Assembly: GCA_002919235.1 (NCBI GenBank)
Contig: PKEX01000037.1
Location: 1 to 64,000 of the forward strand
Origin: Clostridia bacterium
GTDB lineage: Bacteria > Bacillota > Limnochordia > DTU080 > RSA5
DNA: 64,000 bases
Direction: 5' to 3'
In this document: positions 1-29,857 of the stretch, in pieces
Position numbering within the stretch: the first letter of the stretch is position 1
Layout of the letters: each line of letters starts with the position of its first letter
The notes under the pieces: generated by a model
What the model was told of the DNA's origin: nothing
The model's database searches: none
The model's input: the letters and a program-made list of their open reading frames with translations, nothing else
Translations under genes and position numbers: made by a program

Positions 1-330
1 GCAGCCCCGGCCGCGGTCCAGGCCCCGCCGTCCTCCAGCCCCGCGGCAGGGGGACAGGCCGCCGCGAGCGGGGCCGCCTCCCGGCAAGGCCAGGTGGCTG
101 CCACCGTATACCGCGTCCACGTGGGCCACTTCCGCACGCGCGACGAAGCCGTGCGGGTGGCGGACGCCCTGAAGACGGGCACCCCGGCGGTCCCCGACGC
201 TTGGGTGCTCCGGGATGCTGCCACCGGCGAGTACCGGGTGCAGGCGGGGGCTTTCAGCAGCCTCCAGCGGGCCCGGGATTTCGCCGAGCAGCTCATCTCC
301 ATGGGCCACGACGCCTACATCGCCCAGTGA
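1..330 (+). CDS. SPOR-domain protein, 5'-partial (C-terminal SPOR repeat)
   Basis: Frame 1 is open from window position 1 to TGA at 328-330. The C-terminal about 75 aa (VYRVHVGHFRTRDEAVRVADALK...YRVQAGAFSSLQRARDFAEQL) matches the SPOR peptidoglycan-binding repeat pattern. Confidence 0.6.
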   Translation, partial: AAPAAVQAPPSSSPAAGGQAAASGAASRQGQVAATVYRVHVGHFRTRDEAVRVADALKTGTPAVPDAWVLRDAATGEYRVQAGAFSSLQRARDFAEQLISMGHDAYIAQ

Positions 331-404
331 CTCTCCGGCATACTCGCTTCCCAGCAGCCATACGCTTTCCCGCGGGTTTGGGGACCGCGTGGAGGGCACC
401 GGAT

Positions 405-2518: not shown

Positions 2519-2561
2519 AGCCCGGGGACGACAGCATCCAGGCAAGAGTGAACAGAGTGAA

Positions 2562-2597
2562 CACGGGCGGCTCATGGGAGCCGCCCGTGCCGCGTTT
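2562..2597. terminator. Bidirectional intrinsic terminator between convergent mrp and trxB
   Basis: Perfect 12-bp stem cacgggcggctc / gagccgcccgtg with loop atgg, followed by cgcgTTTT on the plus strand and a T-rich tract on the minus strand. Confidence 0.7.
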
Positions 2598-2628
2598 TCA
2601 CGGTCCTCCGGGTGTTTCACGAGGAGCC

Positions 2629-3567: not shown

Positions 3568-3777
3568 GATCAAAGGACACCTCCGGCGCGATGTTGGACC
3601 TCTCGGGAACGTATTCGCCGGCGGCACCAGCGATCCTGTGCTCCCGCCGGCGCCCTCTCCCGGCCGGTGCCGGCATAAAATATTACGAAACCGAGCGGAT
3701 TACACGGAAGGACACGGGGGGTGGTATGGTGAACCATCCGTCTATAGCGCACCCTGTCACGGAAGGAGGTCGTCACC

Positions 3778-4056
3778 ATGGCGGTCACCATCCGCATCCC
3801 TGCGCTGCTTCGCGCGCTGGTGGGCGACAAGAGCGAGGTGAGCGTCGAGAGCGGCGCGGTGGGCGAGGTCCTCGCCCGGCTGGTCTCCGAGTACCCGGAC
3901 GTGAAGGACCGGCTCTACGATGAAGACGGAAACCTCAGGCGGTTTGTCAACGTTTACGTCAACGGGGAGGACATCCGCGCCCTGGACGGCGAAGCGACCC
4001 AGCTCAAGGACGGCGACGAAGTCGCTATCGTCCCCGCTATTGCCGGGGGGATCTGA
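3778..4056 (+). CDS. MoaD/ThiS/CysO-like ubiquitin-fold sulfur-carrier protein with C-terminal GG plus one extra residue (..AIAGG-I)
   Basis: ATG 3778 with GGAAGGAGG SD. 92 aa, beta-grasp-like, ends VPAIAGGI. The extra residue after GG implies proteolytic maturation. Confidence 0.7.
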   Translation: MAVTIRIPALLRALVGDKSEVSVESGAVGEVLARLVSEYPDVKDRLYDEDGNLRRFVNVYVNGEDIRALDGEATQLKDGDEVAIVPAIAGGI

Positions 4057-4162
4057 CCCCTTCTCGCTCCCTTGGCCGGCGGGGACGGGCCGCGGGCACG
4101 AAGGCGGCCGCACCCCGGTCCGGCCAGGGGCGCCTCCCCGGCGGCTCTGGATCGAGCGCCCC

Positions 4163-4555
4163 GTGCTGGACGCGATGTTCGCCGCCAGCCTGCAGGCGGC
4201 GCCGGCGGAAGCCTGCGGCCTTCTGGGCGGCCGGGACGGCGTCGCGACCAGCCACTACCCGGTGCCCAACGTGGCCCCCGAGCCCACGGAGCGGTTCGTC
4301 ATGGACCCCGCCGGGCAGCGGGAGGCCTTCACGGCCATGGAGCGCCGGGGCGAAGAGCTGGTGGCCATCTACCACTCCCATCCTTCGACGGGGGCGTCGC
4401 CCTCCAAGGCGGATCTGCTTTCCGCACACTACCTGGACGCCTTCTACCTCATCGTCGGCCTGCGGCAGGGCAGGCCCTACCTGCGCGCCTTCCGCATTCA
4501 CCCCCGGACCCGGGCGGCGGTGGAAGTCCGCTGGCTCGCCGTCCGCCCCCGCTGA
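4163..4555 (+). CDS. JAMM/MPN+ (Mov34) metalloprotease, Mec+/QbsD-like
   Basis: JAMM motif E..HSHPSTGASPSKADL (HxHx7Sx2D) and N-terminal EACGLLGG. Start uncertain: GTG 4163 or ATG 4175. The listed ORF start 3920 overlaps the moaD-like gene and was rejected. Confidence 0.65.
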   Translation: MLDAMFAASLQAAPAEACGLLGGRDGVATSHYPVPNVAPEPTERFVMDPAGQREAFTAMERRGEELVAIYHSHPSTGASPSKADLLSAHYLDAFYLIVGLRQGRPYLRAFRIHPRTRAAVEVRWLAVRPR

Positions 4556-4623
4556 GCGCAAAATGAGCCTTGGCCTCGGGCCCCAGCGCGCGTACACTAG
4601 TGAGTGAAACGGAGTCGACAGCC

Positions 4624-5223
4624 ATGCCCCATGGGACAAGCCCTTCGCCGCCAAAGATCGTCTTGGCCTCCGCGTCGCCCAGGCGCCGGGCGCTCTTGAG
4701 CGACCTGGGCCTTTCGTTTGCCGTCGAGCCGGCCCGCTTTGATGAATCGCAGGTGACGGACGGGGATCCCGTCGCGCGGGTGAAAGCCCTGGCCGACGGA
4801 AAAGCCCTGGACGTGGCCGGCCGCCACCCGGACGCTTTGGTCATCGGCGCCGACACCATTGTGGTCATCGACGGCACCATTTTGGGCAAGCCCGAGGACG
4901 AAGAGGATGCCCGGCGCATGCTCAGGCTCTTGTCAGGCCGGACGCACCGGGTGTATACGGGCGTGAGCCTGCGGCACCTGGCCAGCGGCCGGCACGCCCT
5001 GGAGGTGGAAGCGACCGACGTCACCTTCGGGCCCCTCACGGACGAGCAGATCGCCCGGTACGTGGCGACGGGAGAGCCGATGGACAAGGCGGGCGCGTAC
5101 GGGATCCAAGGGTACGGCGCGACGCTGGTCCGGGGCATCCACGGCTGCTACTTCAACGTCGTCGGCCTCCCGCTTTACCGGCTCGCCCGCATGCTGGCGC
5201 TCTTTGGCGTCGAAGTGTTTTAG
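4624..5223 (+). CDS. maf: Maf-like nucleoside triphosphate pyrophosphatase (septum formation protein Maf)
   Basis: IVLASASPRRRALL...GADTIV motifs. ATG 4624 with GGAG 9 nt upstream. Confidence 0.8.
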   Translation: MPHGTSPSPPKIVLASASPRRRALLSDLGLSFAVEPARFDESQVTDGDPVARVKALADGKALDVAGRHPDALVIGADTIVVIDGTILGKPEDEEDARRMLRLLSGRTHRVYTGVSLRHLASGRHALEVEATDVTFGPLTDEQIARYVATGEPMDKAGAYGIQGYGATLVRGIHGCYFNVVGLPLYRLARMLALFGVEVF

Positions 5224-5270
5224 CAATTTCGCGGGTTGAACCGTTCCAAGACAGGGAGGTTGGGCATGGC

Positions 5271-5975
5271 TTGTCGAATCAGTTGAACGATTTGCGGGTC
5301 CTGCCGGGCATCCGGGAGCTCCCCGCGGTGGAAAGACCCAGGGAAAGGCTGGTGCGCTTCGGCGCGGACCGCCTGGAAAACCGGGATCTCCTAGCCCTCC
5401 TGCTCGGCACCGGCACGCGCGAGCTTTCCGCGCTGGGGCTGGCCGACCGCCTGCTCGCTCTCTTCGGATCGTTCGACCGGGTCCTCGGCGCCAGCATCGA
5501 GGAGCTCACGGCCGTCCCGGGCGTGGGAATCGCCAAGGCGGCGCAGATCAAGGCGGCGTACGAGATCGGCCGCCGGCTCCAGGCGCCCAGCCGTCCCGAT
5601 CTGGTGATCCGCAGCGCCTACGACGCCGTCGCGGTGGCGGCGCCCCGCATGCGGGGCCTGGAGCGCGAAGAAGTGTGGGCCCTGCTGCTTGACGTCAAGA
5701 ACCGCCTCATCGGGGTGCACGTCGTCTCGGTCGGGCACCTGAGCGGCGCGCCCGTCCACCCGAGAGAGCTTTTTAAAGAGGCGGTCCGCCGCAGCGCCTT
5801 CGCGGTGATCGTGGTCCACAACCACCCGAGCGGCGATGCGACGCCCAGCGCCGACGACATCGCCCTGACGCGCCGGCTGCGGGACGCCGGCGAGCTCCTC
5901 GGCATCGCGCTGCTGGACCACATCGTGCTGGGCGACGGGACCTTTACCAGTCTCAAAGAATCCGGATACTGGTGA
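5271..5975 (+). CDS. radC: RadC-like JAB-domain protein (UPF0758)
   Basis: HhH N-terminus plus JAB motif [17 protein letters not shown] 5271 after GGGAGG. Confidence 0.8.
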
Positions 5976-6021
5976 GCATGGGACGCCTTGCGCGCCGGCT
6001 CATAAGGGAAGGGGACACGAG

Positions 6022-7047
6022 ATGTTTCGAGGATTCTCCCGCGACATGGGCATCGATCTTGGCACCGCCAACACCCTGGTGTTCGTCAAGGGCAAGGGAG
6101 TCATCGTCCAGGAACCGTCGGTCGTCGCGATCGACGCCGAGACCAAAGAGGTGCTGGCCGTCGGGGAAGAAGCCAAGCGCATGGTCGGGAGGACTCCGGG
6201 GAACATCATCGCGGTGCGTCCCCTCAAGGACGGGGTGATCGCCGACTTCGACGTCACCGAGCGGATGCTGCGCCACTTCATCGCCCGGGCCAGCCGGCGG
6301 CGCAGCTTCTTCCGGCCCCGGGTGGTGGTGGCGGTCCCGTCCGGCGTGACTGAGGTGGAAAAGCGGGCGGTGGTCGATGCCACCCGGGCTGCGGGGGCGA
6401 AGGACGCCCGGCTGATCGAAGAGCCCATGGCGGCCGCCATCGGCGTCGGCCTGCCGGTGCAGGAGCCCCGGGGGAACATGATTGTCGACATCGGCGGGGG
6501 CACCACGGAGGTCGCGGTCATCTCCCTGGGCGGGATCGTCTCCCACCGCTCCATCCGCATCGGCGGCGACGAGATGGACGAGGCCATCGTCCAGCACGTG
6601 CGGCGCACGTACAACCTGTTGATCGGCGAGCGGACCGCGGAGGAGATCAAGAAGACCATCGGCACGGCCATCCAAAGCGAAGGAAAGACCATGGAGGTCC
6701 GGGGCCGGGACCTGGTGACGGGGCTGCCCAAGACCGTCGAAATCTCGCAAGAAGAGATCCGGCAGGCGCTCTCCGAGCCGGTCCAGGCCATCGTCGAAGC
6801 GGTCCGCATCACGCTGGAGCGGACCCCGCCCGAGCTCGCGGCGGACATCGTCGAGAAGGGGATTTTCATGGCCGGGGGCGGCTCGCTGCTCCACGGACTG
6901 GACCGGCTCCTGGCCGAGGAGACGGGGATGCCGGTGCACGTGTCGGAGAACGCCCTGAGCGCGGTGGCGGTGGGCACCGGCATCGCCCTGGAGCACTTCG
7001 ACGTGATGCAGCGGGTGCTGGTCAACCCCCGGCGCCTCAACCAGTGA
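6022..7047 (+). CDS. mreB: Rod shape-determining actin-like protein MreB
   Basis: [12 protein letters not shown]-terminus, full-length actin/Hsp70 fold. AGGGGA SD. Confidence 0.9.
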
Positions 7048-7066
7048 GGCCTAAGAGAAGCAGGAC

Positions 7067-7951
7067 GTGGGCGATGTGAAACCGGGCAAGTGGCACGCCC
7101 TGGCGGTGGTCGCGCTCTTCCTCGCGCTCGCGGGCTTGTCGTACGTGACGTCCGACCCCAGGGCGGCGGTGAGCCGTCCTGAGCGCTGGCTGCGGGACGC
7201 GGTGGCACCGGTGCAGGCGGCGCTTTCCGCGGCGGCGCGCTGGGTGGAGGATACGGTGGAGACAGTGGCCTCCGTCGGGCGGCTGCAGGAGGAAAACCGG
7301 GCGCTCCGGGAGGAAGTGGCCCGGCTCCAGGGCCAGTTGAGAGAGCTGGAACAGGTCCGGCGGGAAAACGAGCGGCTGCGGGAGCTGGCCGGCGTCAACC
7401 AGCGGCTCGAGCGGGAGTTCGTCGCCGCCCGGGTGATCGCCCGTTCGCACAGCCAGTGGTTCTCGGCCGTCACCATCAACCGGGGGGCGGTCGACGGCCT
7501 CCGGCCCGGCCTTCCGGTGGTGAACGCCCAAGGCGCGGTGGGCCACGTGGAGAGCGTGACGGCCCGGACTGCCCGGGTGCTGCTCCTCACGGATCTCAAG
7601 AGCGCCGTGGGCGGGATGATCAAGGATTCCGAGATGCCGGTCCTGGTGGAGGGGACAGGAGATCCGGCTGGCCGCGAGGCCCTGGTGCGGCCGCTGGTGG
7701 TGGGGCACAGGCTCGAGCCCGGGGACGAGGTGGTCACGTCCGGCCTCTCGCACATCTTTCCCAAGGGTGTGCCCATCGGCGTCATCGAAGAGGTGCGCGA
7801 CGACGCGCAGGGGCTCAAGCAGCTGGCGGTCCTGCGCCCGCACGTCGATTTCACCCGGCTGGACTGGGTGACGGTGATCCTGGACGGCGAGGACGGCGAG
7901 GTGAGATGGTGGCCCGAGGACGAGGCGGAGGAGGATTCCGCGGAGCAGTGA
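7067..7951 (+). CDS. mreC: Rod shape-determining protein MreC
   Basis: N-terminal TM, coiled-coil region and C-terminal beta domains. Position after mreB. Start is GTG 7067 or GTG 7076. Confidence 0.75.
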   Translation: MGDVKPGKWHALAVVALFLALAGLSYVTSDPRAAVSRPERWLRDAVAPVQAALSAAARWVEDTVETVASVGRLQEENRALREEVARLQGQLRELEQVRRENERLRELAGVNQRLEREFVAARVIARSHSQWFSAVTINRGAVDGLRPGLPVVNAQGAVGHVESVTARTARVLLLTDLKSAVGGMIKDSEMPVLVEGTGDPAGREALVRPLVVGHRLEPGDEVVTSGLSHIFPKGVPIGVIEEVRDDAQGLKQLAVLRPHVDFTRLDWVTVILDGEDGEVRWWPEDEAEEDSAEQ

Positions 7952-8484
7952 CGGCGGCGCGGGCCCGCCGGGGCCTGACGCTGCTGGCTGCCCTCCTCGC
8001 GCTGGCCGTCCAGACCAGCCTTTTCGCCGGGCTGGACCTGGGCGGGATCCGGCCCGACCTGGTCCTGGTGGTGGTGGTCGCGTACGCCCTGGCCAGCGGT
8101 GCGTGGGAAGGGGCGCTGCTGGGCCTTGCGGCCGGCTTTCTGGTCGATCTCTACGGCGGCCGCCTCATCGGAGTGGGCACCCTGGCCAAGGCGGCGGCGG
8201 GCGCGCTGGCAGGGTTTCTGGGAGAGAAAGCCTTCCGGGAGCACGCGTTGGTCCACGCCGCGGCCATCTTCGTTTCCTCGTTGGGTTCGAACGGGGTCTA
8301 CCTGGTCCTGGCGCGGGCCTTCGGGCTCGATTGGCCGCTGGGGTGGGGCATCGGGCGAGTGATCCTCTCCGGGGCGCTCTACGACGCGCTGGCCGGGATC
8401 GTCCTCTACCCGCTCCTCGCCCGGGCGTACCGCGCCGGCAACCGGTTGGACGACAGGATCCTGCCGTCGGCGGAAGGCGGCTAG
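7948..8484 (+). CDS. mreD: Rod shape-determining protein MreD
   Basis: Polytopic membrane protein of about 178 aa. GTG 7948 overlaps the mreC stop (GTGA). The longer listed ORF (7456) is in another frame from mreC and was rejected. Confidence 0.7.
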   Translation: MTAARARRGLTLLAALLALAVQTSLFAGLDLGGIRPDLVLVVVVAYALASGAWEGALLGLAAGFLVDLYGGRLIGVGTLAKAAAGALAGFLGEKAFREHALVHAAAIFVSSLGSNGVYLVLARAFGLDWPLGWGIGRVILSGALYDALAGIVLYPLLARAYRAGNRLDDRILPSAEGG

Positions 8485-8497
8485 GGAGGGGCGCGCG

Positions 8498-10357
8498 GTG
8501 CCTGAGCACGAGCGGCCGGTGCTGAAAGAGCGGGCAAAGCAGTTCGCACTGGTGATCTTCGCCGTCTTCCTGGTCCTCTGGGGGCGGCTCTGGCAGCTCC
8601 AGGTGGTGCGGGGCGACAGCTTCGAGACGCTGGCCGAAGTGAACCGGGTCCGCACGGTGCCGATCCGCGCGCCCAGGGGGGCGATTTACGACGCCCGGGG
8701 CCGGGTGATCGCCGCCAACCGCCTGGCGTTCACGGTGTCGGTGGTCCCGTCGGGCCTGCAGGATCCCGACGGGTCCGTGGTGGCCCGCCTCAGCGAGCTT
8801 CTGGAGATGGAGCCTGGAGAGATCATCGACCTGGTCCGGCGGGGCGGCGAGTACCCGTACACTCCCATCCGGCTCAAGAGGGATGTGCCCATCGAAACGG
8901 CGGTGGCCATCGAGGAGGCCAGGAGCTCTCTCCCGGGCGTCTTGGTGGAAGAGGAATGGGTGAGGGAATACCCTTACGGCCCCTTGGGCGGGCACCTCAT
9001 CGGCTACCTGGGCCTTGCGGATCGCAGCGACCTCCAGGCGGGCTACCGGCCCACGGATTTGGTGGGCAAAGCCGGCTTGGAGCAGGCTTTCGAGCACTTC
9101 CTGCGCGGCGCCGACGGCGAACGGCGGGTCGAGGTGAACGCCCTGAGCCGCCCCACCCGGGAGCTGGAGATCGTACCGCCTCGCCCCGGGATGGACCTCT
9201 ACCTCACCCTGGACCTCGAGTTCCAGCAGGTGGTGGAAGAGGCGCTGAAGCGGGGCCTCGAGCGCATGGCCGCCCAGGCCGAGCACGGGCTGGCCGGCAA
9301 GGGGGCGGCCGTCGTCCTGGACGCCAAGACCGGGGGAATCTTGGCCTTGGCCAGCTTCCCGGCGATCGATCCCGCGCGCCTCACGGGGGAAGACCGCTCT
9401 TCTTACGTGGAGGAATTGAACCAGGATCCCATGAGCCCGTGGCTCAACCGGGCGCTGCGGGCCTTCCCGCCCGGCTCCACCTTCAAGGTGGTGACCGGCA
9501 TCGCGGCGCTTGAGAGCGGCGCGATCGGCCCGGACGAGGTGTACAACGCCGTAGGCTACCACAAGTACGGCAAGCGGGACTGGACGGTGAGGAGCGGGCT
9601 GCCGCCGGCGGGGCCCATCACCATCGTGGAGGCCTTTGGGCGCTCCACCAACGACTTCTTCTGGGAAATCGCCCTCCGGCCGCAGACGGGCGGCATCGAA
9701 GGGATTGCCCGGTGGGCGCAGCGGCTGGGCCTGGGCGGGCCCACCGGCATCGAGCTGGCCGCGGCCGAAATGCACGGGCTCATCCCGACGCCCGAGTGGA
9801 AGCGGCAGGTCTACCGGCAGCCCTGGTACGAGGCGGAGACCATGGACGTCGCCATCGGCCAAGGGTTTCTCCAGGTGACGCCTCTCCAGATGGCCCGCCT
9901 TTACCTGGTGGTGGCCACCGAAGGGCTGCTGCGCCCCGTCCACCTGGTGCATCACGTGGAGGCCCCCGACGGCAGCGTGTCGGTGGACCTCCGGGGGGAC
10001 CAGGGCGAACGGGTGCCGGCCAAGGCCAGCACGTGGCGGGCGTTGAAGGAGGGCCTCCGCCACGTCCTCCAGTGGCCGCGGGGGACCGCCTACTCGGCCT
10101 TCGCGGGAGCGGAGTACGATCCGGCGGGCAAGACGGGAACGGCCCAGACGGAGACGGCGGCGCACGGCTGGTTCGCCGGCTTCGCGCCGGCTCACGACCC
10201 GGAGATCGTCGTCGTGGTCTTCGCCGAGCACGGTGAAAGCGGGGTGGAGGCGGCTCGCGTCGCCCGGGAGATCATGGACTGGTACTTCGATCCCCACCGG
10301 GAGCAGCCGGGGCCCGAGAACGCCCGGAACGGGCAGGAGATCGGCATTTCAGGTTGA
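8498..10357 (+). CDS. mrdA: Penicillin-binding protein 2 (elongasome transpeptidase)
   Basis: N-terminal TM, PBP dimerisation domain, STFK, SxN-like and KTGT motifs. GTG 8498 after GGGAGGGG. Confidence 0.85.
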   Translation: MPEHERPVLKERAKQFALVIFAVFLVLWGRLWQLQVVRGDSFETLAEVNRVRTVPIRAPRGAIYDARGRVIAANRLAFTVSVVPSGLQDPDGSVVARLSELLEMEPGEIIDLVRRGGEYPYTPIRLKRDVPIETAVAIEEARSSLPGVLVEEEWVREYPYGPLGGHLIGYLGLADRSDLQAGYRPTDLVGKAGLEQAFEHFLRGADGERRVEVNALSRPTRELEIVPPRPGMDLYLTLDLEFQQVVEEALKRGLERMAAQAEHGLAGKGAAVVLDAKTGGILALASFPAIDPARLTGEDRSSYVEELNQDPMSPWLNRALRAFPPGSTFKVVTGIAALESGAIGPDEVYNAVGYHKYGKRDWTVRSGLPPAGPITIVEAFGRSTNDFFWEIALRPQTGGIEGIARWAQRLGLGGPTGIELAAAEMHGLIPTPEWKRQVYRQPWYEAETMDVAIGQGFLQVTPLQMARLYLVVATEGLLRPVHLVHHVEAPDGSVSVDLRGDQGERVPAKASTWRALKEGLRHVLQWPRGTAYSAFAGAEYDPAGKTGTAQTETAAHGWFAGFAPAHDPEIVVVVFAEHGESGVEAARVAREIMDWYFDPHREQPGPENARNGQEIGISG

Positions 10358-10430
10358 AAGACAGAACGACTGTGAATGCACGGATGCGCGTGGGTGGGTG
10401 ACGGCGAAGGTGGCGGGGCAAGGCGCAGTG

Positions 10431-11093
10431 ATGCTGAAGGGCAGCCGCGAGGGCGTCGCCATCGTCATCGACGAAGCGGTGAGCATCGAGACGGCCATCG
10501 CGGAGCTCCGGGCCAAGCTCCAGGAGTCGGGTGAGTTCTTTCGCGGAGCGGCCTTTCGCCTCGATGCAGGGCGCCGCCGCCTGACGGAAGAGGAGCGCGA
10601 GGCCCTTTCGCAAGCGGTGCGAGAGTTCGGCATCGAGCTCCACGTGGTGGACGATACGCCGCGAGGGGGCGGGCCCGTCGCCTTCCCGCGCCGGGAGCGC
10701 TTGCCGCAGGTCACGGCAGGGCGCGCCGCACGGGGACGGGGTGAGGAGATGGCCTCCGAAGAGCGCACGCTGTATCTGAGGAGGACCCTCCGGTCGGGTC
10801 AGCGGGTGGACTTCGACGGCAACGTGGTCATCATGGGCGATGTGAACGCCGGGGCGCAGATCACGTGCACGGGCGACATCATCGTCCTGGGAACCTTGCG
10901 CGGGCTCGCGCACGCGGGAGCCGCCGGCAACGAGGAGGCCATCGTCATGGCCTTCCGCCTGGAGCCGACGCAGCTCCGCATCGCACATTACATCTCCAGG
11001 GCGCCGGACGAGGCTGAGCCGAGGCCCGTGGGACCGGAGATCGCCCGGGTGAAGAACGACATGATCCTGATTGAGGCTTACGACCCGCGATGA
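10431..11093 (+). CDS. minC: Septum site-determining protein MinC
   Basis: MinC N- and C-terminal domains (beta-helical C-terminus GDVNAGAQITCTGDIIVLG). Start chosen at ATG 10431; the upstream in-frame extension overlaps pbp2. GTG 10398 is an alternative. Confidence 0.7.
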   Translation: MLKGSREGVAIVIDEAVSIETAIAELRAKLQESGEFFRGAAFRLDAGRRRLTEEEREALSQAVREFGIELHVVDDTPRGGGPVAFPRRERLPQVTAGRAARGRGEEMASEERTLYLRRTLRSGQRVDFDGNVVIMGDVNAGAQITCTGDIIVLGTLRGLAHAGAAGNEEAIVMAFRLEPTQLRIAHYISRAPDEAEPRPVGPEIARVKNDMILIEAYDPR

Positions 11094-11111
11094 CGAGGAG
11101 GTCCGTCTCCG

Positions 11112-11921
11112 ATGGCAGGTAAAGTCTTGGTTGTGACCAGCGGCAAGGGAGGCGTCGGCAAGACGACCACCACGGCCAACCTGGGCACGGGGCTCGCGCT
11201 GCTGGGAAGAAGGGTGTGCCTGGTCGACGCGGACATCGGCCTGCGCAACCTGGACGTGGTGATGGGCCTGGAAAACCGGATCGTCTACGATCTGGTGGAT
11301 GTGATCGAAGGCCAGTGCAAGCTGCGGAACGCGCTGATCAAGGACAAGCGGGTGGAAAACCTCTTTCTCCTCCCGGCCGCTCAAACCCGGGAAAAGGACG
11401 CCGTCACTCCCGCGCAGATGAAAGAGCTCTGCGACACGCTCAAACAGGAGTTTGACTACGTTCTGGTGGACTCGCCCGCCGGCATCGAGCACGGTTTCCG
11501 CAACGCGATCGCCGGCGCCGACGACGCCCTCATCGTGACGACCCCCGAGGTCTCCGCCGTCCGGGACGCGGACCGGATCATCGGCATGCTGGAAGCGCAC
11601 GAGATCCGTTCGCCCAAGCTCATCGTCAACCGCATCCGCCCCGACATGGTGAAGCGGGGCGACATGATGGACATCGACGACGTCATCGAGATCCTGGCCA
11701 TCCAGCTGATCGGGGTGGTGCCTGACGATCAGGAAGTGATCGTGGCCACCAACAAGGGGGAGCCGGTCATCTTCGACCGCAGGACCCGCTCCGGCCAGGC
11801 GTACTACAACATCGTGCGCCGCCTGGAAGGCGAGGACGTCCCGTTCATGCAGATCGGCCCGGACGGCTTTGTCGAGCGGCTCCGCCGCCTTCTGAGCCGC
11901 GACGTGCGCCGGAGGGCTTAG
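11112..11921 (+). CDS. minD: Septum site-determining ATPase MinD
   Basis: Deviant Walker A motif SGKGGVGKTT. GAGGAGG SD. Confidence 0.9.
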   Translation: MAGKVLVVTSGKGGVGKTTTTANLGTGLALLGRRVCLVDADIGLRNLDVVMGLENRIVYDLVDVIEGQCKLRNALIKDKRVENLFLLPAAQTREKDAVTPAQMKELCDTLKQEFDYVLVDSPAGIEHGFRNAIAGADDALIVTTPEVSAVRDADRIIGMLEAHEIRSPKLIVNRIRPDMVKRGDMMDIDDVIEILAIQLIGVVPDDQEVIVATNKGEPVIFDRRTRSGQAYYNIVRRLEGEDVPFMQIGPDGFVERLRRLLSRDVRRRA

Positions 11922-11965
11922 ACACGGCGGCCCGCACCGGACTTGCGGGCGATGGGGGGATCGTG

Positions 11966-12247
11966 ATGCGCGACTTCTTCGGCAGGCTTTTCAGCAGGGA
12001 AGAAGGGAGCAAGAAGGCAGCCAAGGACCGCCTGCGCCTGGTGCTGGTGCACGACCGGACCAGCCTCTCGCCGCACCTGCTCGACACCCTGAAGGAAGAC
12101 TTGATCCAGACCATCTCGAAGTACCTGGAGATCGACACCGAAGGCCTTGAAGTCAACATCGATCAAGAGGAGGAGACGATGGCCCTCGTCGCCAGCATCC
12201 CGATCCGCTCCGTGCGGCGGGGTGTCGTCGCGAAGGCCAACTCGTAA
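11966..12247 (+). CDS. minE: Cell division topological specificity factor MinE
   Basis: MMRDFFGRLFSREEGSKK... typical MinE. ATG 11966 with GGGGGGA SD 5 nt upstream. Confidence 0.85.
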   Translation: MRDFFGRLFSREEGSKKAAKDRLRLVLVHDRTSLSPHLLDTLKEDLIQTISKYLEIDTEGLEVNIDQEEETMALVASIPIRSVRRGVVAKANS

Positions 12248-12250
12248 CCC

Positions 12251-13378
12251 TTGGACATCGATCGCCGCTTGTTCCGCAATCTGGACGTCCCCCTGATCGC
12301 CGTCACGCTCCTTCTGGTCGTCTTCGGTCTCGTCGCCGTGTACAGCGCCACCTTTTCGCTGGATCCCGGTGATCCCTACCGGTACGTCCGCCGGCAGCTG
12401 GCCTGGGCCGCCGCCGGCGGGATGGTCGCGGCGGTCTCGCTTCTTTTCGATTACCAGCAGTGGGCCAGGGCCGCTCGCTTGATCTACCTGGCCACTCTAA
12501 TCATCCTGGCCGCGGTGCCCCTGTTTGCCCCCAGCATCCAAGGCGCGCGCCGCTGGTTCGTCGTGGGACCCGTGCAGCTCCAGCCGTCGGAGTTCGCCAA
12601 GCTGGCCATCATCGTGACGCTGGCGCGGCTCCTGGCGGCCCGGGAGGAGCTGGCCCGCCCCACAGGTCTCATCGGCCCGCTGATCCACGTAGGTCTTCCC
12701 ATCGGGCTCATCCTGCTGCAGCCGGATCTGGGCACGTCGCTGATCTTCATCGCGATCCTGTTCGGGATGCTCTTTGCCGCGGGGGTTCCTCTGCGCTACT
12801 TGGTGGCGCTGGGGGCAGGGGGAGCCGCGCTGTTCGCCGTCGCTGCGTACGCCTCGCTGCAGGGATGGTTCCCGCTCCTGAAAGAGTACCAGCTCCGCAG
12901 GCTCTTGGTCTTCCTCGATCCCTACAGCGACCGCACCGGCGCGGGCTGGAACGTGATCCAGTCGATGATCGCCATCGGTTCGGGCGGCTTCTTCGGCAAA
13001 GGGCTCTTTTCGGGGTCGCAGACGCAGCTCCGGTTCTTGCCGGCCCGCCACACGGACTTCATCTTCTCGGTCATCGGCGAAGAGCTGGGCTTTCTCGGCG
13101 CGTTCCTCCTGCTGGGACTCTACTTCCTCCTCATGTGGCGCTCGTTGCGGCTGATGGCCCAAGCGAAGGACACGTTCGGCGCGCTGATCATCGCCGGCGT
13201 CGTCTCGATGATCTTCGGCCACGTGCTGGTGAACGTGGGCATGACCCTGGGGATTATGCCCGTCACCGGCCTTCCCCTGCCCTTCGTCAGCGTCGGCGGG
13301 ACGTCGCTGGTCACCAACCTCCTGGGCGTGGCCATGATCCTCAACGTCCACATGCGCCGCCACAAGATCCTCTTCTGA
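12251..13378 (+). CDS. rodA: SEDS-family peptidoglycan polymerase RodA (FtsW/RodA/SpoVE)
   Basis: About 10 TM segments, SEDS motifs. TTG 12251 sits 3 nt after the minE stop. Confidence 0.8.
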   Translation: MDIDRRLFRNLDVPLIAVTLLLVVFGLVAVYSATFSLDPGDPYRYVRRQLAWAAAGGMVAAVSLLFDYQQWARAARLIYLATLIILAAVPLFAPSIQGARRWFVVGPVQLQPSEFAKLAIIVTLARLLAAREELARPTGLIGPLIHVGLPIGLILLQPDLGTSLIFIAILFGMLFAAGVPLRYLVALGAGGAALFAVAAYASLQGWFPLLKEYQLRRLLVFLDPYSDRTGAGWNVIQSMIAIGSGGFFGKGLFSGSQTQLRFLPARHTDFIFSVIGEELGFLGAFLLLGLYFLLMWRSLRLMAQAKDTFGALIIAGVVSMIFGHVLVNVGMTLGIMPVTGLPLPFVSVGGTSLVTNLLGVAMILNVHMRRHKILF

Positions 13379-27272: not shown

Positions 27273-27301
27273 TTGACACGCTGGGCGAAACGCGCTATAC
27301 T
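27273..27301 (+). promoter_or_regulatory. Sigma-A promoter TTGACA, 17-nt spacer, TATACT for tRNA-Ala
   Basis: TTGACA at 27273-78, exact 17-nt spacer, TATACT at 27296-301. A 9-bp leader hairpin (27312-27338) precedes the tRNA. Confidence 0.65.
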
Positions 27302-27345: not shown

Positions 27346-27421
<76 letters not shown>

Positions 27422-27434
27422 GAAGACCACGAAA

Positions 27435-27463
27435 GGGCCTGCGAAAGCAGGCCCTTTCTCTTT
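27435..27463 (+). terminator. Intrinsic terminator after tRNA-Ala
   Basis: Stem GGGCCTGC / GCAGGCCC, loop gaaa, then TTTCTCTTT. Confidence 0.8.
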
Positions 27464-27663
27464 CCCGCATTCCGACTGGATTTTCGAGTGAACCGGCATC
27501 ACCCAATCACGGCCGGCGCCCGTCTTGACGCCGGTGGAGATGGTCCGCCGCTCCAGGTCCACTGAGAGCGGGTACGCGAGCGGAACTCGCCGCTGCGAAA
27601 CCCGGAGTAGATGAGGATGATCCCGGCCTAAATGTCGCCGGAGGTGGGTGTGGAGGAGAATAG

Positions 27664-27692
27664 GTAGGCCCCGGTGGTGAACCGGGGCCTAC
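27664..27692. terminator. Perfect 12-bp hairpin at the left edge of the AT-rich islet
   Basis: gtaggccccggt-ggtga-accggggcctac, followed by attgcttacttcttatt on the plus strand and ctattctcc on the minus strand. It is immediately 3' of the minus-strand 66-aa gene. Confidence 0.55.
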
Positions 27693-27697
27693 ATTGC

Positions 27698-27898
27698 TTA
27701 CTTCTTATTGAGATAGGCCGATGCTAATTCACGAACGGCCCTTTGCGTCGGCTTCTCCAAGATTGCCATCGCTAGCATTCTCGTGTGTTGCTTCTGAACC
27801 GGCAATGAAGGGAGTTCAATGAATCGCATTCCTCGCGGCAATGGGCGCTCCAAATTATCCCTTTTTGCCTTTATCGCCCACCATCTCTCATAATCCAT
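27698..27898 (-). CDS. Hypothetical 66-aa protein (second gene of the islet)
   Basis: ATG 27898 preceded by GGGAGACG with a 5-nt spacer. AT-rich codons atypical for this genome. No family recognised by eye. The listed ORF start 27913 is TTG. Confidence 0.5.
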   Translation of the reverse strand: MDYERWWAIKAKRDNLERPLPRGMRFIELPSLPVQKQHTRMLAMAILEKPTQRAVRELASAYLNKK

Positions 27899-27952
27899 TA
27901 TAACGTCTCCCAATCATCCGCGCAAAGCTTGTCATCAATAGCGCCGTCTCTT

Positions 27953-28507
27953 TCACAATTTCCTCGCTCTGGGTAAACAGGCAAGACTGTGGCGGGTTGG
28001 TATCATCAAGAGAGTAAGAACTCCGATCACATCTTCACTATCGCCCCTAAATATGGGTACAGATAAGACCACACCCATTTGCCTGGTTACTTCCCAGTGG
28101 CTCTCCGTGATACCCCACATCTGTGGTGGATCACTACTTGCCGCTACCTCATGGTAAGTGGATCCGTGTAGATGGCTCAAGTCGGCAAGAATTGGCTTCT
28201 TGTCCTCGTAGACCCTCCCAATCACACCTTGCCCTCTGTTCCAACGCAGTTTTCGTTCCCGAGGGGAATAATTCCCTATCCAATACTTGATTCTCAGGCC
28301 GGACGACGGGATCGAGCTTGGAACCGCTATATTGCAGCGTACGTTTCTAGCTTCGATGGTCTTGCCTTTGACAATCAAGTCCCTCAACTCATGCAGGACC
28401 ACTTCAATGTCGGTCCTCTTTTGCACCCATTCACTGCGGATATGGCTAGCGAAACCAGATAAGGTCATCCATGTTACACCGGTCAAATGGACGAGCTTGA
28501 CCGCCAC
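27953..28507 (-). CDS. Stand-alone GAF-domain protein (about 170-184 aa)
   Basis: GAF-like pattern: GQGVIGRVYEDKKPILADL ... MGVVLSVPIFRGDSEDVIGVLTL. Start is GTG 28507 or ATG 28468. Lower G+C than its surroundings. Confidence 0.55.
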   Translation of the reverse strand: MAVKLVHLTGVTWMTLSGFASHIRSEWVQKRTDIEVVLHELRDLIVKGKTIEARNVRCNIAVPSSIPSSGLRIKYWIGNYSPRERKLRWNRGQGVIGRVYEDKKPILADLSHLHGSTYHEVAASSDPPQMWGITESHWEVTRQMGVVLSVPIFRGDSEDVIGVLTLLMIPTRHSLACLPRARKL

Positions 28508-28672
28508 GGCTCACTCTGACGACTGGGTGCATGTGAGCAGTGGAAAGAAGAGAGAGGTTGTGTGAAAAGCCGGATGGCTGCGTGAATACGGGGAAGTGTC
28601 ACGCGGTCGCAAGCCGAATACAGTCGAGCGACCGGACCCAGCTGCTCCAGGCGTCTTGGACAATCGAAAAAA

Positions 28673-28769
28673 TGGAGACTGGTTGCGGAATCGAACCGCA
28701 CAGCCGATCGTGCAAGATCGGCCCGACGGGTTTGAAGCCCGCGGCCAGCACCAGCTAGCTCAACCAGCC
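28673..28769 (-). tRNA. selC: tRNA-Sec (selC-like, anticodon UCA), 97 nt
   Basis: Manual fold of the minus strand: 13-bp coaxial acceptor/T helix (8/5 or 9/4), 6-bp D-stem gctagc / gctggc with a 4-nt loop tggt, anticodon stem-loop gcggg-cTTCAaa-cccgt, 25-nt variable arm with a 7-bp stem gccgatc / gatcggc, T-loop ttcgatt, 3' tcca. Confidence 0.65.
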
Positions 28770-28960
28770 TCGAAGAGAAACGTCGATCACATGTGGAGGG
28801 CTTGACAGCGAGGCTTGCGCCTCGGGTACCATTGTAGCAGACGGACAAGGGACGACTCAAGCCGGCGGCGCCGCTGTCCGCCGGAGCTGCGGGCAGCGGA
28901 GTTCAAGCCTTCGCCAGGCTTTCCACACGGCGCGCCATTCGGACGCAAAGGAGTGAGACC

Positions 28961-29383
28961 GTGGTCGACAAGCTCATCCTGAGCGAGGAAGAGTGGAAAA
29001 AGCGGTTGACGCCCGAGGAGTACCGGGTGCTGCGGCAGGCGGGGACCGAGCCGCCGTGGACCGGCTGCTTCGTCGGCACCAAGGAGCCGGGCACGTATGT
29101 CTGCCGGGCCTGCGGCAACCCGCTGTTTAAGTCCGGCGCCAAGTTTGAGTCGGGCACCGGGTGGCCGTCGTTTACGGAGCCCATCTCGCCTGACGCCTTG
29201 ACGGAGCACGAGGACCGTTCGTACGGCATGATCCGGACCGAGGTGCGCTGCGCCCGCTGCGGCAGCCACCTGGGGCACGTGTTCCCCGACGGCCCGCCGC
29301 CCACGGGCCTGCGCTACTGCATCAACTCCATCGCCATGAAGCACGTGCCCGAAGGCCAGCCCATCCCGCTGGTCACGGAGTGA
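28961..29383 (+). CDS. msrB: Peptide-methionine (R)-S-oxide reductase MsrB
   Basis: Two CxxC zinc motifs (CRACGNP, CARCGSH) and catalytic RYCINS. GTG 28961 after AAAGGAGTGAG. Confidence 0.9.
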
Positions 29384-29763
29384 AGGGCTTCCTCGGGGAC
29401 GGCCAGCAGGTGGCCGCCGCACCGGCAGTCGCTGGCGCCGAAGCGGGGGACGGCCCGCAAGGCGCCCCAGCGTTCGATGAGGTAGTTGGCCAGGCGGCAC
29501 TCGTCGGCCTTGGCGCCGTCCGAGAGCGTGACCGCCACCACGTCCCCGTACGGCCTGAGGTAGTCGATGTGCCACCGCTTCACCTTGTCGCGGCGGAGGT
29601 GCCTCCGGACGCGGGCCAGGCGGTTTCGCTGCGCGCTGCCCACGTAGGCGTAGACGCCTTTCTCCAGCGACACCTCGCCCAGTGCTCCTACGGGAACGCG
29701 CACGTCCCGCGGAAGCCGCAGCCAGAGGATATAGAGTCCTGAGTCGCTGCGATGTCCGGTCAT
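29314..29763 (-). CDS. GIY-YIG-like nuclease-fold protein (DUF123 family)
   Basis: GLYILWLRL...[10 protein letters not shown]...[12 protein letters not shown] motifs. The 3' end overlaps the msrB 3' end (convergent, about 70 nt). Start chosen at ATG 29763. Confidence 0.55.
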
Positions 29764-29857
29764 CGTACCATCGATTCGCCCCGCAGGCTTCACCGCCTGC
29801 CGGGCGGTCGTCGTAGCGGAAAGGGGACCGGCGATCCGCCGGTCCCCGCTCTTCTAT

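What the first reader, a model, noticed from the sequence alone, without database searches (positions are those of the whole stretch)
27560..28672. AT-richer two-gene islet (GAF-domain protein plus 66-aa partner) wedged between the 3' ends of tRNA-Ala and tRNA-Sec
From about 27.66 to 28.56 kb the base composition drops sharply by eye, from about two-thirds G+C to roughly even, and codon usage changes (ata, aat, tat, aaa, agg). The 3' ends of a plus-strand tRNA-Ala and a minus-strand selC-like tRNA-Sec both face this segment, and tRNA 3' ends, selC in particular, are classic integration sites. The islet carries one operon on the minus strand: a stand-alone GAF-domain protein (27953-28507) and a 66-aa protein (27698-27898), closed by a perfect 12-bp hairpin (27664-27692). 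I see no integrase and no obvious att duplication, so it may be a decayed remnant or a minimal cassette. A bare GAF sensor plus tiny partner on foreign DNA is not a module I can assign to any described toxin-antitoxin or defence system. It is the best candidate in this window for something undescribed, for example a ligand-gated two-component toxin or defence cassette.
Basis: partly seen in the sequence, partly recalled or inferred. Interest (0 to 1): 0.75.

Follow-up and report, generated by a model that had tools for sequence, protein, structure and literature searches.

The report
Decayed foreign membrane-GAF two-gene remnant
The AT-rich islet between tRNA-Ala and tRNA-Sec is real foreign DNA, but it is a broken leftover of a rare, unstudied two-gene operon (a membrane-anchored GAF protein plus a tiny basic partner) whose layout resembles the SpoIISA/SpoIISB toxin-antitoxin pair, not a working cassette.

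Summary
The tRNA-Ala(GGC) and tRNA-Sec 3' ends face an 805-bp segment (27698-28502) with GC about 0.50 against 0.68. GC3 is 0.55-0.56 against 0.88-0.93 in native genes, and this is the lowest-GC stretch of the window.

The two minus-strand ORFs form a real conserved pair. In all 13 related loci a GAF-like gene of about 232 aa is followed within 4-18 nt by a very basic gene of about 57 aa, with different neighbours each time.

- It lacks the first ~32 codons (TM1, start, promoter) at the islet edge.
- A +2 frameshift in a (CT)3 run removes the last helix.
- In sister strains IS256-type elements interrupt it.

Sister strains with identical flanks carry other cargo here, including a complete tyrosine integrase next to tRNA-Ala.

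The closest described analogue by architecture is SpoIISA/SpoIISB: a membrane GAF toxin plus a 56-aa disordered antitoxin. Profile comparison shows no detectable homology to it. I read the islet as an inert remnant of an uncharacterised, probably toxin-antitoxin-like, mobile module. The locus has modest interest; the family is worth testing from an intact copy.

The parts
27346..27421 (+). tRNA-Ala (anticodon GGC). Its 3' end faces the islet. In sister strain L025 an integrase-bearing element starts immediately after base 27421.
   Evidence: ARAGORN, Rfam. L025 is identical up to 27421 and then diverges. A promoter-like site lies at 27273-27301.
27422..27697 (.). Native-GC (about 0.65) non-coding spacer shared at 100% identity with sister haplotypes that carry other cargo. 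It contains a tRNA-Ala terminator-like hairpin (27431-27458) and the 12-bp perfect hairpin (27664-27692). It ends at the constant breakpoint 27697/27698.
   Evidence: L024, L026 and L027 are identical to the window through 27697 and then diverge or end. Hairpins are I2 and I3. No Pfam or Rfam match. It is not repeated elsewhere in the 1.7 Mb held.
27664..27692 (.). Perfect 12-bp stem, 5-nt loop hairpin lying 5 nt beyond the small ORF's stop. It belongs to the shared flank, not to the islet. It could still act as a terminator.
   Evidence: The terminator scan does not call it. The same hairpin precedes different DNA in L024 and L026.
27698..28502 (-). The foreign islet proper (805 bp): a remnant of a two-gene operon.
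   Evidence: GC and GC3. Contigs of MAG GCA_047459375.1 end at 27697 and start at 28503. Protein homology to relatives starts at 28504. All 10 differences between the window and L003 lie inside it, at 27707-28482.
27698..27898 (-). Small partner gene, intact: 66 aa here. The conserved core of about 57 aa corresponds to a start near 27873, which is ATG in L003 and ATA in the window. pI is 10.4. It has an extended Pro-rich middle (RPLPxGMxF(I/V)(E/D)LPS) and two C-terminal helices.
   Evidence: It is homologous to the gene directly downstream of the GAF-like gene in all 13 loci L001-L013 and in L116; alignment A4. No Pfam or PDB relatives. AF2 pLDDT is 58. pI.
27953..28507 (-). 184-aa ORF: the truncated GAF-domain gene. 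It lacks about 32 N-terminal codons (TM1) and reads out of frame after VIGVLTL.
   Evidence: tblastn of P0002 aa 33-209 matches 28504-27980 at E 8e-59. GAF_2 E=0.022. No N-terminal hydrophobic segment, unlike all full-length relatives. A TGA lies two codons upstream of the GTG.
28009..28014 (-). Frameshift site: a (CT)3 run with 2 extra nucleotides relative to the frame kept by all homologues.
   Evidence: The two tblastn segments lie in frames offset by +2, ending at 28010 and starting at 28013. Sequence read. The same shift is present in the independent assembly L003.
27888..28010 (-). Out-of-frame 3' part of the GAF gene. It encodes LDDTNPPQSCLFTQSEEIVKETALLMTSFARMIGRRYNGL*, the last GAF helix. 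Its stop overlaps the window's small-ORF start.
   Evidence: tblastn of P0002 aa 196-236 matches 28013-27891 at E 8e-13. Translation.
28503..28672 (.). Spacer between the islet and the tRNA-Sec 3' end, shared by sister strains. It contains a 60-bp indel (28563-28622) that is absent in L015 and L018.
28674..28770 (-). tRNA-Sec (selC-like), on the same strand as the module and upstream of it. A promoter-like site lies at 28860-28831, so read-through into the remnant is possible.
   Evidence: Read-through is an inference.

Best explanation
**Shown**
- Bases 27698-28502 are horizontally acquired DNA lying in a strain-variable island between tRNA-Ala(GGC) and tRNA-Sec. The host is a high-GC compost bacterium whose GDH is closest to Limnochordia-like Bacillota MAGs.
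- The DNA is a remnant of a rare two-gene operon. Its intact form encodes (i) a protein of about 232 aa with N-terminal transmembrane helices, a long connecting helix and a canonical GAF domain, and (ii) a very basic protein of about 57 aa, 4-18 nt downstream.
- In this genome gene (i) is dead or crippled. Its first ~32 codons (TM1, start codon, promoter) are cut off at the islet edge. A 2-nt expansion in a (CT)3 run shifts the frame before the last GAF helix. In sister strains IS256-type elements sit inside it.
- Gene (ii) is still an intact ORF.

**Inferred**
- The intact operon is an autonomous toxin-antitoxin-like module of the SpoIISA/SpoIISB type. The membrane-anchored GAF protein would oligomerise through its GAF helices and damage the membrane or the division machinery. 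The small, largely unstructured partner would bind the cytoplasmic GAF domain and hold it inactive. The GAF pocket may receive a small-molecule trigger.
- In the window the toxin half was lost first, as is usual for decaying toxin-antitoxin loci. What remains is inert. At most, the small ORF is still expressed by read-through from the selC promoter.
For: **Foreignness:** GC and GC3.

**Variable island**
- Contigs with 100% identical flanks diverge at 27421, where an integrase plus an M78 peptidase follow (L025).
- They diverge at 27463 (integrase fragment, L030).
- They diverge at 27697 (5'-truncated ABC-2 gene plus 5.5 kb of other cargo, L024 and L026).
- Nearly all MsrB-side contigs break inside or next to the islet.

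**Conserved pair**
- The partner lies directly downstream in 13 of 13 close loci with different neighbours and in L116.
- The three more distant relatives examined also have a small gene just downstream (L117, L118 and, cut by the contig end, L122). These small genes are not homologous to each other or to the window's partner.
- The module has lower GC than its flanks in 4 of 5 loci.

**Architecture**
- AF2 model of P0005 (pLDDT 73) has helices 2-26 and 31-80 followed by an alpha/beta domain.
- Pfam GAF is above threshold for P0005, and 11 of 21 relatives hit GAF_2.
- All full-length relatives have N-terminal hydrophobic segments.

**Decay**
- Two tblastn segments lie in different frames and there is no match to aa 1-32. 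The frameshift is shared by the independent assembly L003.
- A Mutator-family transposase (E 1.1e-13) abuts window position 28327 in L014. A second IS end abuts 28402 in L015 and L016.
- All 9 substitutions and 1 indel between the window and L003 fall inside the islet, with none in 373 bp of flank. All three in the GAF ORF change the amino acid.

**Analogy**
- SpoIISA is a 248-aa protein with 3 TM helices and a cytoplasmic GAF fold. It is followed by the 56-aa, natively disordered SpoIISB, which wraps the GAF dimer. Truncated SpoIISA is non-toxic. Orthologues are so divergent that partners were found by position (PMC6562991; PMC3057836).
- toxFtsL_D9 is a validated TM+GAF toxin (PMC10440598).
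- Some contexts are defence or mobile islands: an NsnA-like gene in L011, Wadjet-type and toxin-antitoxin genes in L117, and an integrase plus excisionase-like HTH_17 in L118.
Against: - No toxicity, binding or ligand data exist for any member.
- There is no detectable sequence or profile similarity to SpoIISA. hhalign gives probability 0.1% against the 3O6Q_A sequence. Pfam's scans returned only GAF-type and a few unrelated weak matches, none to a toxin or antitoxin family.
- The proteins have two predicted TM helices rather than three, and the second is weak in the close clade.
- Both proteins are basic (GAF part pI about 9.4, partner pI about 11). That would also fit a nucleic-acid-binding regulator.
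- There are no hits in PADLOC, plasmids or phages, IMG/VR or 185,579 GTDB species genomes. Mobility and defence association therefore rest on a handful of metagenomic contigs.
- The AF2 model rests on 7 sequences.
- The 184-aa ORF is still open, so residual function cannot be excluded.
Confidence: 0.55

Rival explanations
1. Working minimal cassette. The 184-aa soluble GAF protein and the 66-aa partner are expressed and act together in this genome as a ligand-gated toxin or defence pair.
For: - Both ORFs are open.
- The small ORF keeps a start codon in both variants through start-codon turnover, and its conserved core shows only one, synonymous, change.
- The module lies downstream of, and on the same strand as, the tRNA-Sec promoter.
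Against: - The gene lacks the TM1 segment that every full-length relative has, and it loses the last GAF helix by frameshift.
- No promoter-like site lies upstream of it.
- IS insertions in it are tolerated in sister strains.
- All three substitutions in the GAF ORF are non-synonymous.
- In the analogous SpoIISA, neither domain alone is toxic (PMC6562991).
Confidence: 0.1
2. Signalling pair rather than toxin-antitoxin. In the intact module the membrane-anchored GAF protein senses a small molecule and sequesters or releases the small basic partner, which acts as a DNA- or RNA-binding regulator, in the manner of an anti-sigma or anti-regulator. The window copy is still a decayed remnant.
For: - The GAF domain is closest to ordinary sensor GAFs.
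- The partner is very basic, pI 10.4-11.9, with a C-terminal helix-turn-helix-like hairpin.
- Regulators lie next to some copies: a wHTH-like 249-aa gene in L004-L009 and a Mor-like gene in L116.
Against: - Neighbouring genes differ in every locus, so there is no conserved regulatory target.
- The partner has no match to any DNA-binding family.
- The partner is not conserved in sequence across the wider family, while its position is. That is typical of antitoxin-like binders.
- The module behaves as autonomous mobile cargo with a deviant GC.
Confidence: 0.2
3. Remnant of a phage lysis-control pair of the holin/antiholin type. The membrane protein with a GAF-like soluble domain would act as a T4 T-type holin and the small protein as an RI-type antiholin.
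For: - SpoIISA itself has been proposed to be holin-like (PMC3057836).
- A Mor-like late activator lies upstream in L116. An integrase-bearing element occupies the same site in sister strain L025.
Against: - There are no relatives in IMG/VR for three clades or in INPHARED phages, and only sub-significant PHROG matches (E 0.2-0.3).
- No endolysin or other phage genes lie next to any copy.
- Two TM helices would put the GAF domain on the same side as the positively charged N terminus (MR..R; sequences). By the positive-inside rule, which is my inference, that side is the cytoplasm, unlike the periplasmic domain of T.
- Ordinary GAFs score higher than T.
Confidence: 0.05
4. Native genes with odd composition, or an assembly artefact.
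For: None beyond the fact that most of the data are metagenomic contigs.
Against: - An independent assembly (L003, ENA ERZ27256727) spans both junctions with 99.2% identity.
- Sister strains with identical flanks lack the islet.
- GC3 differs by more than 0.3 from native genes.
- Homologues exist in unrelated contexts.
Confidence: 0.02

Closest known systems
SpoIISA/SpoIISB(/SpoIISC) type II toxin-antitoxin system of Bacillus (PDB 3O6Q; Pfam SpoIISA_toxin and SpoIISB_antitox, family names from my own knowledge)
   Same: - Gene order is large gene then small gene, tightly linked.
- The large protein is about 230-250 aa, with N-terminal TM helices, a long helix and a cytoplasmic GAF-fold domain ending in a C-terminal helix.
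- The partner is about 56 aa, hydrophilic, without a stable fold of its own, and has a C-terminal helix.
- Partners diverge beyond recognition while keeping their position.
- The host is a Bacillota-like organism.

Sources: PMC6562991 and PMC3057836.
   Different: - There is no detectable sequence or profile similarity, and Pfam scans gave no match to any toxin or antitoxin family.
- Two predicted TM helices rather than three.
- Function is untested.
- The window copy is truncated and frameshifted.
toxFtsL_D9 : PanA toxin-antitoxin pair of Gelidibacter mesophilus (WP_027127282.1 / WP_027127283.1; Ernits et al. 2023, PMC10440598)
   Same: A membrane-localised helical N-terminal region plus a GAF domain in a toxin of about 281 aa. 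The toxin causes filamentation and delayed lysis and is neutralised by a partner that binds it directly.
   Different: - The antitoxin there is a Panacea (DUF4065) domain protein. No such gene lies next to any copy here.
- I could not obtain the TD9 sequence, so homology was not tested.
Phage T4 holin T / antiholin RI (PDB 6PXE, 6PSK, 6PX4)
   Different: - In T there is one TM helix and the domain is periplasmic.
- The genes are phage-borne and not adjacent.
- No phage context or phage homologues were found here.
tRNA-associated genomic islands (classically at selC and other tRNA 3' ends)
   Same: Deviant composition, location between two tRNA 3' ends, strain-to-strain replacement of cargo, and a tyrosine integrase next to the tRNA in a sister strain.
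   Different: - There is no integrase and no att repeat in the window.
- The islet is only 805 bp.
- The islet's edges are deletion or recombination scars that cut genes, not att sites.

Membership tests
GAF domain (Pfam PF01590 / PF13185) | Sequence match above the curated gathering score | tested here: inconclusive
   Window ORF: GAF_2 15.4 bits against a cut-off of 28.6, E 0.022. Restored 206-aa version: 17.3 bits. The full-length relative P0005 passes PF01590 (24.0 against 22.4). Of 21 family members, 8 hit GAF and 11 hit GAF_2 at E<=0.01.
GAF domain (Pfam PF01590 / PF13185) | GAF fold: antiparallel sheet flanked by an N-terminal and a C-terminal helix | tested here: met
SpoIISA/SpoIISB toxin-antitoxin family | Homology to SpoIISA (cytoplasmic domain, 3O6Q_A) or to SpoIISB | tested here: not met
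   hhalign of family alignments A2 and A3 against the 3O6Q_A sequence gives probability 0.05-0.13%. The sequence was verified. Pfam scans at E<=10 and at E<=0.01 returned no toxin or antitoxin family.
SpoIISA/SpoIISB toxin-antitoxin family | N-terminal membrane-spanning segments (three in SpoIISA) required for toxicity | tested here: inconclusive
   Full-length relatives have one strong and one weaker N-terminal hydrophobic helix, not three. The window copy has none.
SpoIISA/SpoIISB toxin-antitoxin family | A small (~56 aa) hydrophilic gene immediately downstream, unstructured alone, with a C-terminal helix | tested here: met
   A 56-57-aa gene lies 4-18 nt downstream in 13 of 13 close loci and in L116. 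AF2 gives low confidence, with an extended middle and C-terminal helices. Disorder itself was not measured.
SpoIISA/SpoIISB toxin-antitoxin family | Toxicity of the large protein, neutralised by direct binding of the small one | not testable with these tools
   This needs expression and rescue assays, and a multimer prediction or pull-down.
PanA-associated toxFtsL_D9 toxins (NetFlax) | Adjacent Panacea (DUF4065) antitoxin; homology to WP_027127282.1 | tested here: not met
   No Panacea-domain gene was recorded among the called neighbours of any locus. Homology to TD9 was not tested because the sequence was not obtainable.
tRNA-integrated genomic island or integrative element | Integrase gene next to the tRNA | tested here: not met
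   None in the window. tblastn with the sister-strain integrases found nothing significant (best E 0.031, a short stretch on the opposite strand inside the islet). Pfam found nothing on 27460-27660 translations. A complete integrase is present at the same tRNA-Ala in L025.
tRNA-integrated genomic island or integrative element | Direct repeat of the tRNA 3' end (attL/attR) | tested here: not met
   The 25-27-nt 3' ends of both tRNAs occur once each with up to 3 mismatches allowed. No flanking direct repeats.
tRNA-integrated genomic island or integrative element | Deviant composition and presence/absence polymorphism among close relatives | tested here: met
Integron gene cassette | attC with R''/R' core sites travelling with the ORF; crossover at G|TTRRRY | tested here: not met
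   The hairpin stays with the flank while the ORF side changes. The junction ATTGC|TTAC (window) against ATTGC|CGCT (L024) shares no GTTRRRY core (sequence read).
Known anti-phage defence systems (PADLOC-DB 2.0) | HMM match to a catalogued defence protein | tested here: not met
   The GAF proteins give 0 families. The small ORF gives only DrmMI at E 0.025 over 46 residues, which I treat as noise.

The most novel reading that the evidence does not exclude
The intact operon (two-TM canonical GAF protein plus a ~57-aa basic partner) and its wider family are a previously unrecognised, independently evolved class of membrane-acting, small-molecule-gated toxin-antitoxin or abortive-infection modules. 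The wider family comprises about 100 clusters at 50% identity, all annotated 'hypothetical'. The four more distant members whose surroundings were examined each have a small gene immediately downstream. In this reading the GAF pocket senses a stress- or phage-derived ligand and releases the protein from its small inhibitor. That would make 'TM helices + GAF + tiny wrap-around partner' a recurrent design, alongside SpoIISAB, toxFtsL and T4 T/RI.
Probability: 0.3. Interest if true: 0.6.

Novelty: new variant of a known kind. Interest (0 to 1): 0.4.

Why it matters
**For this genome.** The islet is a scar. It marks the tRNA-Ala/tRNA-Sec interval as a hot spot where sister strains differ by an integrase-bearing element, IS256-type insertions, deletions and replaced cargo. 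It also shows the usual order of decay of an addiction-type module: the large gene breaks first and the small gene survives.

**More generally.** The islet led to a small, unannotated protein family with a membrane anchor and a canonical GAF domain. In the loci examined, each member has a tiny gene directly downstream. The family is found almost only in metagenomes.

If the intact pairs prove to be toxin-antitoxin or defence modules, they would add a second, sequence-unrelated lineage to the SpoIISA/SpoIISB design. They would also offer a tractable case of a GAF ligand pocket controlling a membrane toxin. If they do not, the family is simply another orphan sensor.

Tried and rejected
1. **Integrase fragment at 27460-27660 (minus strand).** By eye the translation 'LSVDLERRTISTGVKTGAGRDWVMPVH' looked like a tyrosine-recombinase motif. 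Pfam found nothing, and tblastn with the two sister-strain integrases found nothing there. I dropped the idea. The segment remains unexplained.
2. **Decayed TM1 upstream of the GTG** ('RIHAAI' and 'SRSHPAFHTTSLFF' against MRIHAALFNTLML). Only a 6-residue match at E 2.9. The contig-break and homology boundary at 28503/28504 explains the truncation better.
3. **Small ORF as a fragment of an MmeI/DrmMI-type methyltransferase.** The hits were weak (E 0.18 and 0.025). Conserved full-length small homologues contradict it.
4. **Integron cassette or attC reading of the hairpin.** Rejected on junction sequences.
5. **The 276-bp flank as a MITE or PATE.** No second copy in the 1.7 Mb of held sequence.
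6. **Free methionine-R-sulfoxide reductase role.** fRMsr is a top fold hit and MsrB is a neighbour. However, the neighbour is native and the islet is foreign, the relatives are membrane-anchored, and they do not travel with msr genes. I did not pursue it.
7. **Wider searches.** GTDB species genomes, IMG/VR, plasmids and phages gave nothing for the family. The JGI metagenome scan gave two loci, one of them already known.
8. **Synteny beyond the species.** GDH-tRNA-Ala(GGC) is conserved in a Limnochordia MAG and a Clostridia MAG, but the downstream genes are unrelated and there is no tRNA-Sec. No 'empty site' could be defined.
The single-sequence model is too poor for fold search. The afdb50 library was unavailable.
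Full report
**1. The observation.**
ARAGORN finds exactly two tRNA genes in the window: tRNA-Ala(GGC) at 27346-27421 (+) and tRNA-SeC(TCA) at 28674-28770 (-). Rfam confirms both. Their 3' ends face each other across about 1.25 kb.

In 200-bp windows GC drops from 0.65-0.73 to 0.48-0.52 between about 27.7 and 28.5 kb. The 800-bp window starting at 27701 has GC 0.496 and is the lowest in the whole 64 kb (mean 0.681, sd 0.033). Third-position GC is 0.56 and 0.55 for the two ORFs, against 0.92, 0.93 and 0.88 for GDH, MsrB and the DUF123 gene.

No integrase and no repeat of either tRNA 3' end is present.

**2. The two ORFs are a conserved pair.**
The word-indexed search of 5.8 billion clusters found only three relatives of the 184-aa ORF. 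A profile search added four more. One of them (P0001, locus L003) is the same locus in an independent ENA assembly. The others are 230-236 aa and about 50% identical.

In every locus that carries such a gene (L001-L013), tblastn finds a homologue of the window's small ORF immediately downstream. The gaps are 4-18 nt. Its consensus is MKTAKSSAARPLPPGMQFVDLPSLREQKKVARDLARAILKHPTRSAARALAKRYLSE.

The surrounding genes differ from locus to locus:
- an ABC transporter;
- an MMPL/DUF1302/DUF1329 cluster and purA;
- DUF2589 genes and an APH;
- a DUF262/NsnA-like defence gene.

The module has lower GC than its flanks in four of five loci. It therefore behaves as an autonomous, mobile two-gene unit.

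**3. What the proteins are.**
An exhaustive HMMER search of 1.84 billion representatives gave 103 clusters at E<=1e-3. Only 2 reach E<=1e-30, and most are 225-260 aa. Named members are all 'hypothetical protein'.

The family shares an N-terminal hydrophobic region and these motifs: RxN(I/L)M, GQG(V/C)xG, WG(I/L)TxxxWxxT, S(V/I)P(I/V) and (V/I)IGVLNxDD.

The AF2 model of P0005 has mean pLDDT 73, and 83-90 over most of the GAF core (residues ~100-200). It shows helices 2-26 and 31-80 followed by an alpha/beta domain ending in a helix at 212-228.

The partner has no Pfam, PDB, PHROG, NCBIfam or credible PADLOC relatives. Its pI is 10.4-11.9. A low-confidence single-sequence model shows an extended middle and two C-terminal helices.

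Four more distant relatives were examined in their loci:
- P0009 (L116) has a homologous 56-aa partner.
- P0012 (L117) and P0014 (L118) each have a small gene directly downstream that is not homologous to it.
- P0017 (L122) has one that is cut by the contig end.

**4. The window copy is broken.**
tblastn of P0002 against the region gives two segments in different frames. Residues 33-209 match 28504-27980 (E 8e-59). Residues 196-236 match 28013-27891 (E 8e-13). The offset is +2 and falls in a (CT)3 run at 28009-28014. The second frame reads LDDTNPPQSCLFTQSEEIVKETALLMTSFARMIGRRYNGL*, which is the last GAF helix. The frameshift is also present in L003.

Residues 1-32 of the relatives (TM1) have no counterpart. 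The ORF's frame has a TGA two codons upstream of its GTG. The 184-aa product has no hydrophobic N terminus. No promoter-like site lies upstream of it.

The point where homology starts (28504) coincides with the point where sister-strain contigs start (28503 and 28508).

Between the window and L003 there are 9 substitutions and 1 indel, all at 27707-28482. There are none in the 373 bp of flank covered. All three substitutions in the GAF ORF change the amino acid. The conserved core of the small ORF has one, synonymous, change. Its start codon has moved: ATG at 27898 in the window, and the homologue-like ATG near 27873 in L003.

**5. The surroundings are a strain-variable island.**
Exact look-ups of the window's MsrB and GDH proteins returned dozens of contigs of the same species from compost-type metagenomes and two NCBI MAGs. 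Nearly all of them end at or inside the islet.

*On the tRNA-Ala side*
- L024, L026 and L027 are 100% identical to the window up to 27697. L024 and L026 then continue with a 5'-truncated ABC-2 membrane gene, and L024 carries about 5.5 kb of other cargo in all. L027 ends at 27697.
- L025 is identical up to 27421, the last base of tRNA-Ala. It continues with a complete 437-aa tyrosine integrase (Pfam E 1.6e-18), an M78 peptidase gene and more.
- L030 diverges at 27463 into an integrase fragment.

*On the tRNA-Sec side*
- L014 has the end of an IS256/Mutator-type transposase gene (E 1.1e-13) and an IS terminus joined to window position 28327, inside the GAF gene.
- L015 and L016 have another IS end joined at 28402.
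- A 60-bp indel (28563-28622) also segregates.

MAG GCA_047459375.1 has one contig ending at 27697 and another starting at 28503. These points delimit the islet as 27698-28502.

The hairpin lies in the shared flank. It precedes different DNA in the other haplotype, so it is not part of the islet.

By GDH similarity the host is closest to an unnamed 'bacterium RSA8' (81%), a Limnochordia MAG (75%) and a Clostridia MAG (75%). The species itself is not among the GTDB representatives.

**6. Mechanism.**
The shown facts are these:
- The DNA is foreign.
- The gene pair is conserved elsewhere.
- The intact large protein has a membrane anchor and a GAF domain.
- The window copy is broken.
- The interval between the two tRNAs varies among sister strains.

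The function of the intact pair is inferred from its architecture and its behaviour. The closest described design is SpoIISA/SpoIISB.
- SpoIISA is a 248-aa toxin with three TM helices and a cytoplasmic GAF-fold domain that dimerises through its first and last helices.
- It is followed in the operon by SpoIISB, a 56-aa natively disordered antitoxin that wraps around the dimer.
- Neither half of SpoIISA alone is toxic.
- Orthologues diverge so far that partners were identified by position (PMC6562991; PMC3057836).

A second precedent is toxFtsL_D9. This TM+GAF toxin is neutralised by PanA and causes filamentation and lysis (PMC10440598). A third is T4 holin T with antiholin RI.

I therefore propose that the intact module is a toxin-antitoxin-like pair, and that the window retains a disabled toxin gene and a surviving partner gene. 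For the degraded-foreign-remnant part my confidence is about 0.85. For the toxin-antitoxin-like mechanism it is about 0.35-0.4.

**7. Membership as opposed to resemblance.**
I obtained the CSpoIISA sequence by recalling it and verifying it at 100% identity against PDB 3O6Q_A. Profile comparison with the family alignments gives a probability of about 0.1%.

The module is therefore not a demonstrable member of the SpoIIS family. It is an analogue with a more canonical GAF domain and two rather than three predicted TM helices. It is absent from PADLOC, plasmids, phages, IMG/VR and GTDB species genomes.

**8. Verdict.**

It is not a functioning stand-alone GAF cassette, and its design is not without precedent. 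The locus itself is of modest interest, as a scar in a hot spot. The family it points to is uncharacterised and testable from intact copies elsewhere.

Novelty: new variant of a known kind, namely a membrane GAF protein with a small downstream partner. Function is untested.

Noticed in passing
L014:1-315 joined to window 28327; L015:1-196 and L016:1-134 joined to window 28402: In sister strains IS elements sit inside the GAF gene. L014 carries the 3' end of a Mutator/IS256-family transposase (Pfam E 1.1e-13) and an IS terminus (…TTACACCACTTGACGGGACACTATC). L015 and L016 share a related 25-nt terminus (TTACACCATCATACCGGACACTACT) at the same junction, but their interiors differ. This may mean the two ends of one IS, opposite orientations, or a solo end.
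   Followed up: partly
window 27697/27698 (5 nt beyond hairpin 27664-27692): The same breakpoint is used in two haplotypes, and in both the DNA to the right begins with a cut or abutting gene. In the window it is the stop codon of the small ORF. In L024 and L026 it is a 5'-truncated ABC2_membrane_6 gene (profile positions 49-229 of 229). A hairpin-adjacent recombination or deletion hot spot is possible. No repeat, att or integron core was found.
   Followed up: partly
window 28563-28622: A 60-bp indel in the spacer between the islet and tRNA-Sec. It is present in the window, L014, L016 and L017 and absent in L015 and L018. L021 starts at 28623.
   Followed up: no
window 27707-28482 compared with L003: All 10 differences between the two assemblies lie inside the 805-bp islet, while the flanks are identical. 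Five of them cluster in 40 bp around the start of the small ORF, where the start codon has switched position (ATG 27898 in the window, ATG near 27873 in L003). This suggests relaxed constraint or a small recombination tract.
   Followed up: partly
window 27460-27660, minus strand: This native-GC, apparently non-coding 200 bp gives a translation that looks by eye like a tyrosine-recombinase motif, split over two frames. Neither Pfam nor tblastn with the sister-strain integrases supports this. Its origin is unexplained.
   Followed up: yes
window 28961-29383 (+) and 29314-29793 (-): The MsrB (SelR) gene and a convergent DUF123 gene overlap by about 70 bp at their 3' ends. The same overlap is called in all sister contigs.
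   Followed up: no
L025:11699-14138: A sister strain with an identical GDH/tRNA-Ala flank carries an integrated element starting right at the tRNA-Ala 3' end: a 437-aa tyrosine integrase, a Peptidase_M78 (ImmA/IrrE-like) gene and further small genes. This shows that tRNA-Ala(GGC), rather than selC, is the demonstrable attachment site in this species.
   Followed up: partly
L117 (GCA_000987045.1, Clostridiales bacterium PH28_bin88), 285-12711: A distant family member (P0012) and its 62-aa downstream gene sit between two sets of DUF2397/DUF2398/DUF2399/SbcC-type (Wadjet-like) genes. A DUF4258 gene and a PhdYeFM-Uma2 gene lie nearby. This is a defence and toxin-antitoxin island context.
   Followed up: no
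L116:5303-5575: A Mor-like late transcriptional activator (PHROG E 3e-7) lies directly upstream of the P0009 pair. This is a phage-type regulator next to one copy of the module.
   Followed up: no
L118:960-1151 (also L119-L121): In the P0014 clade the small downstream gene overlaps the GAF gene by 14 nt. It encodes a 63-aa protein with a C-terminal transmembrane helix, unlike the soluble basic partner of the window's clade. An integrase and an HTH_17 gene are nearby.
   Followed up: no
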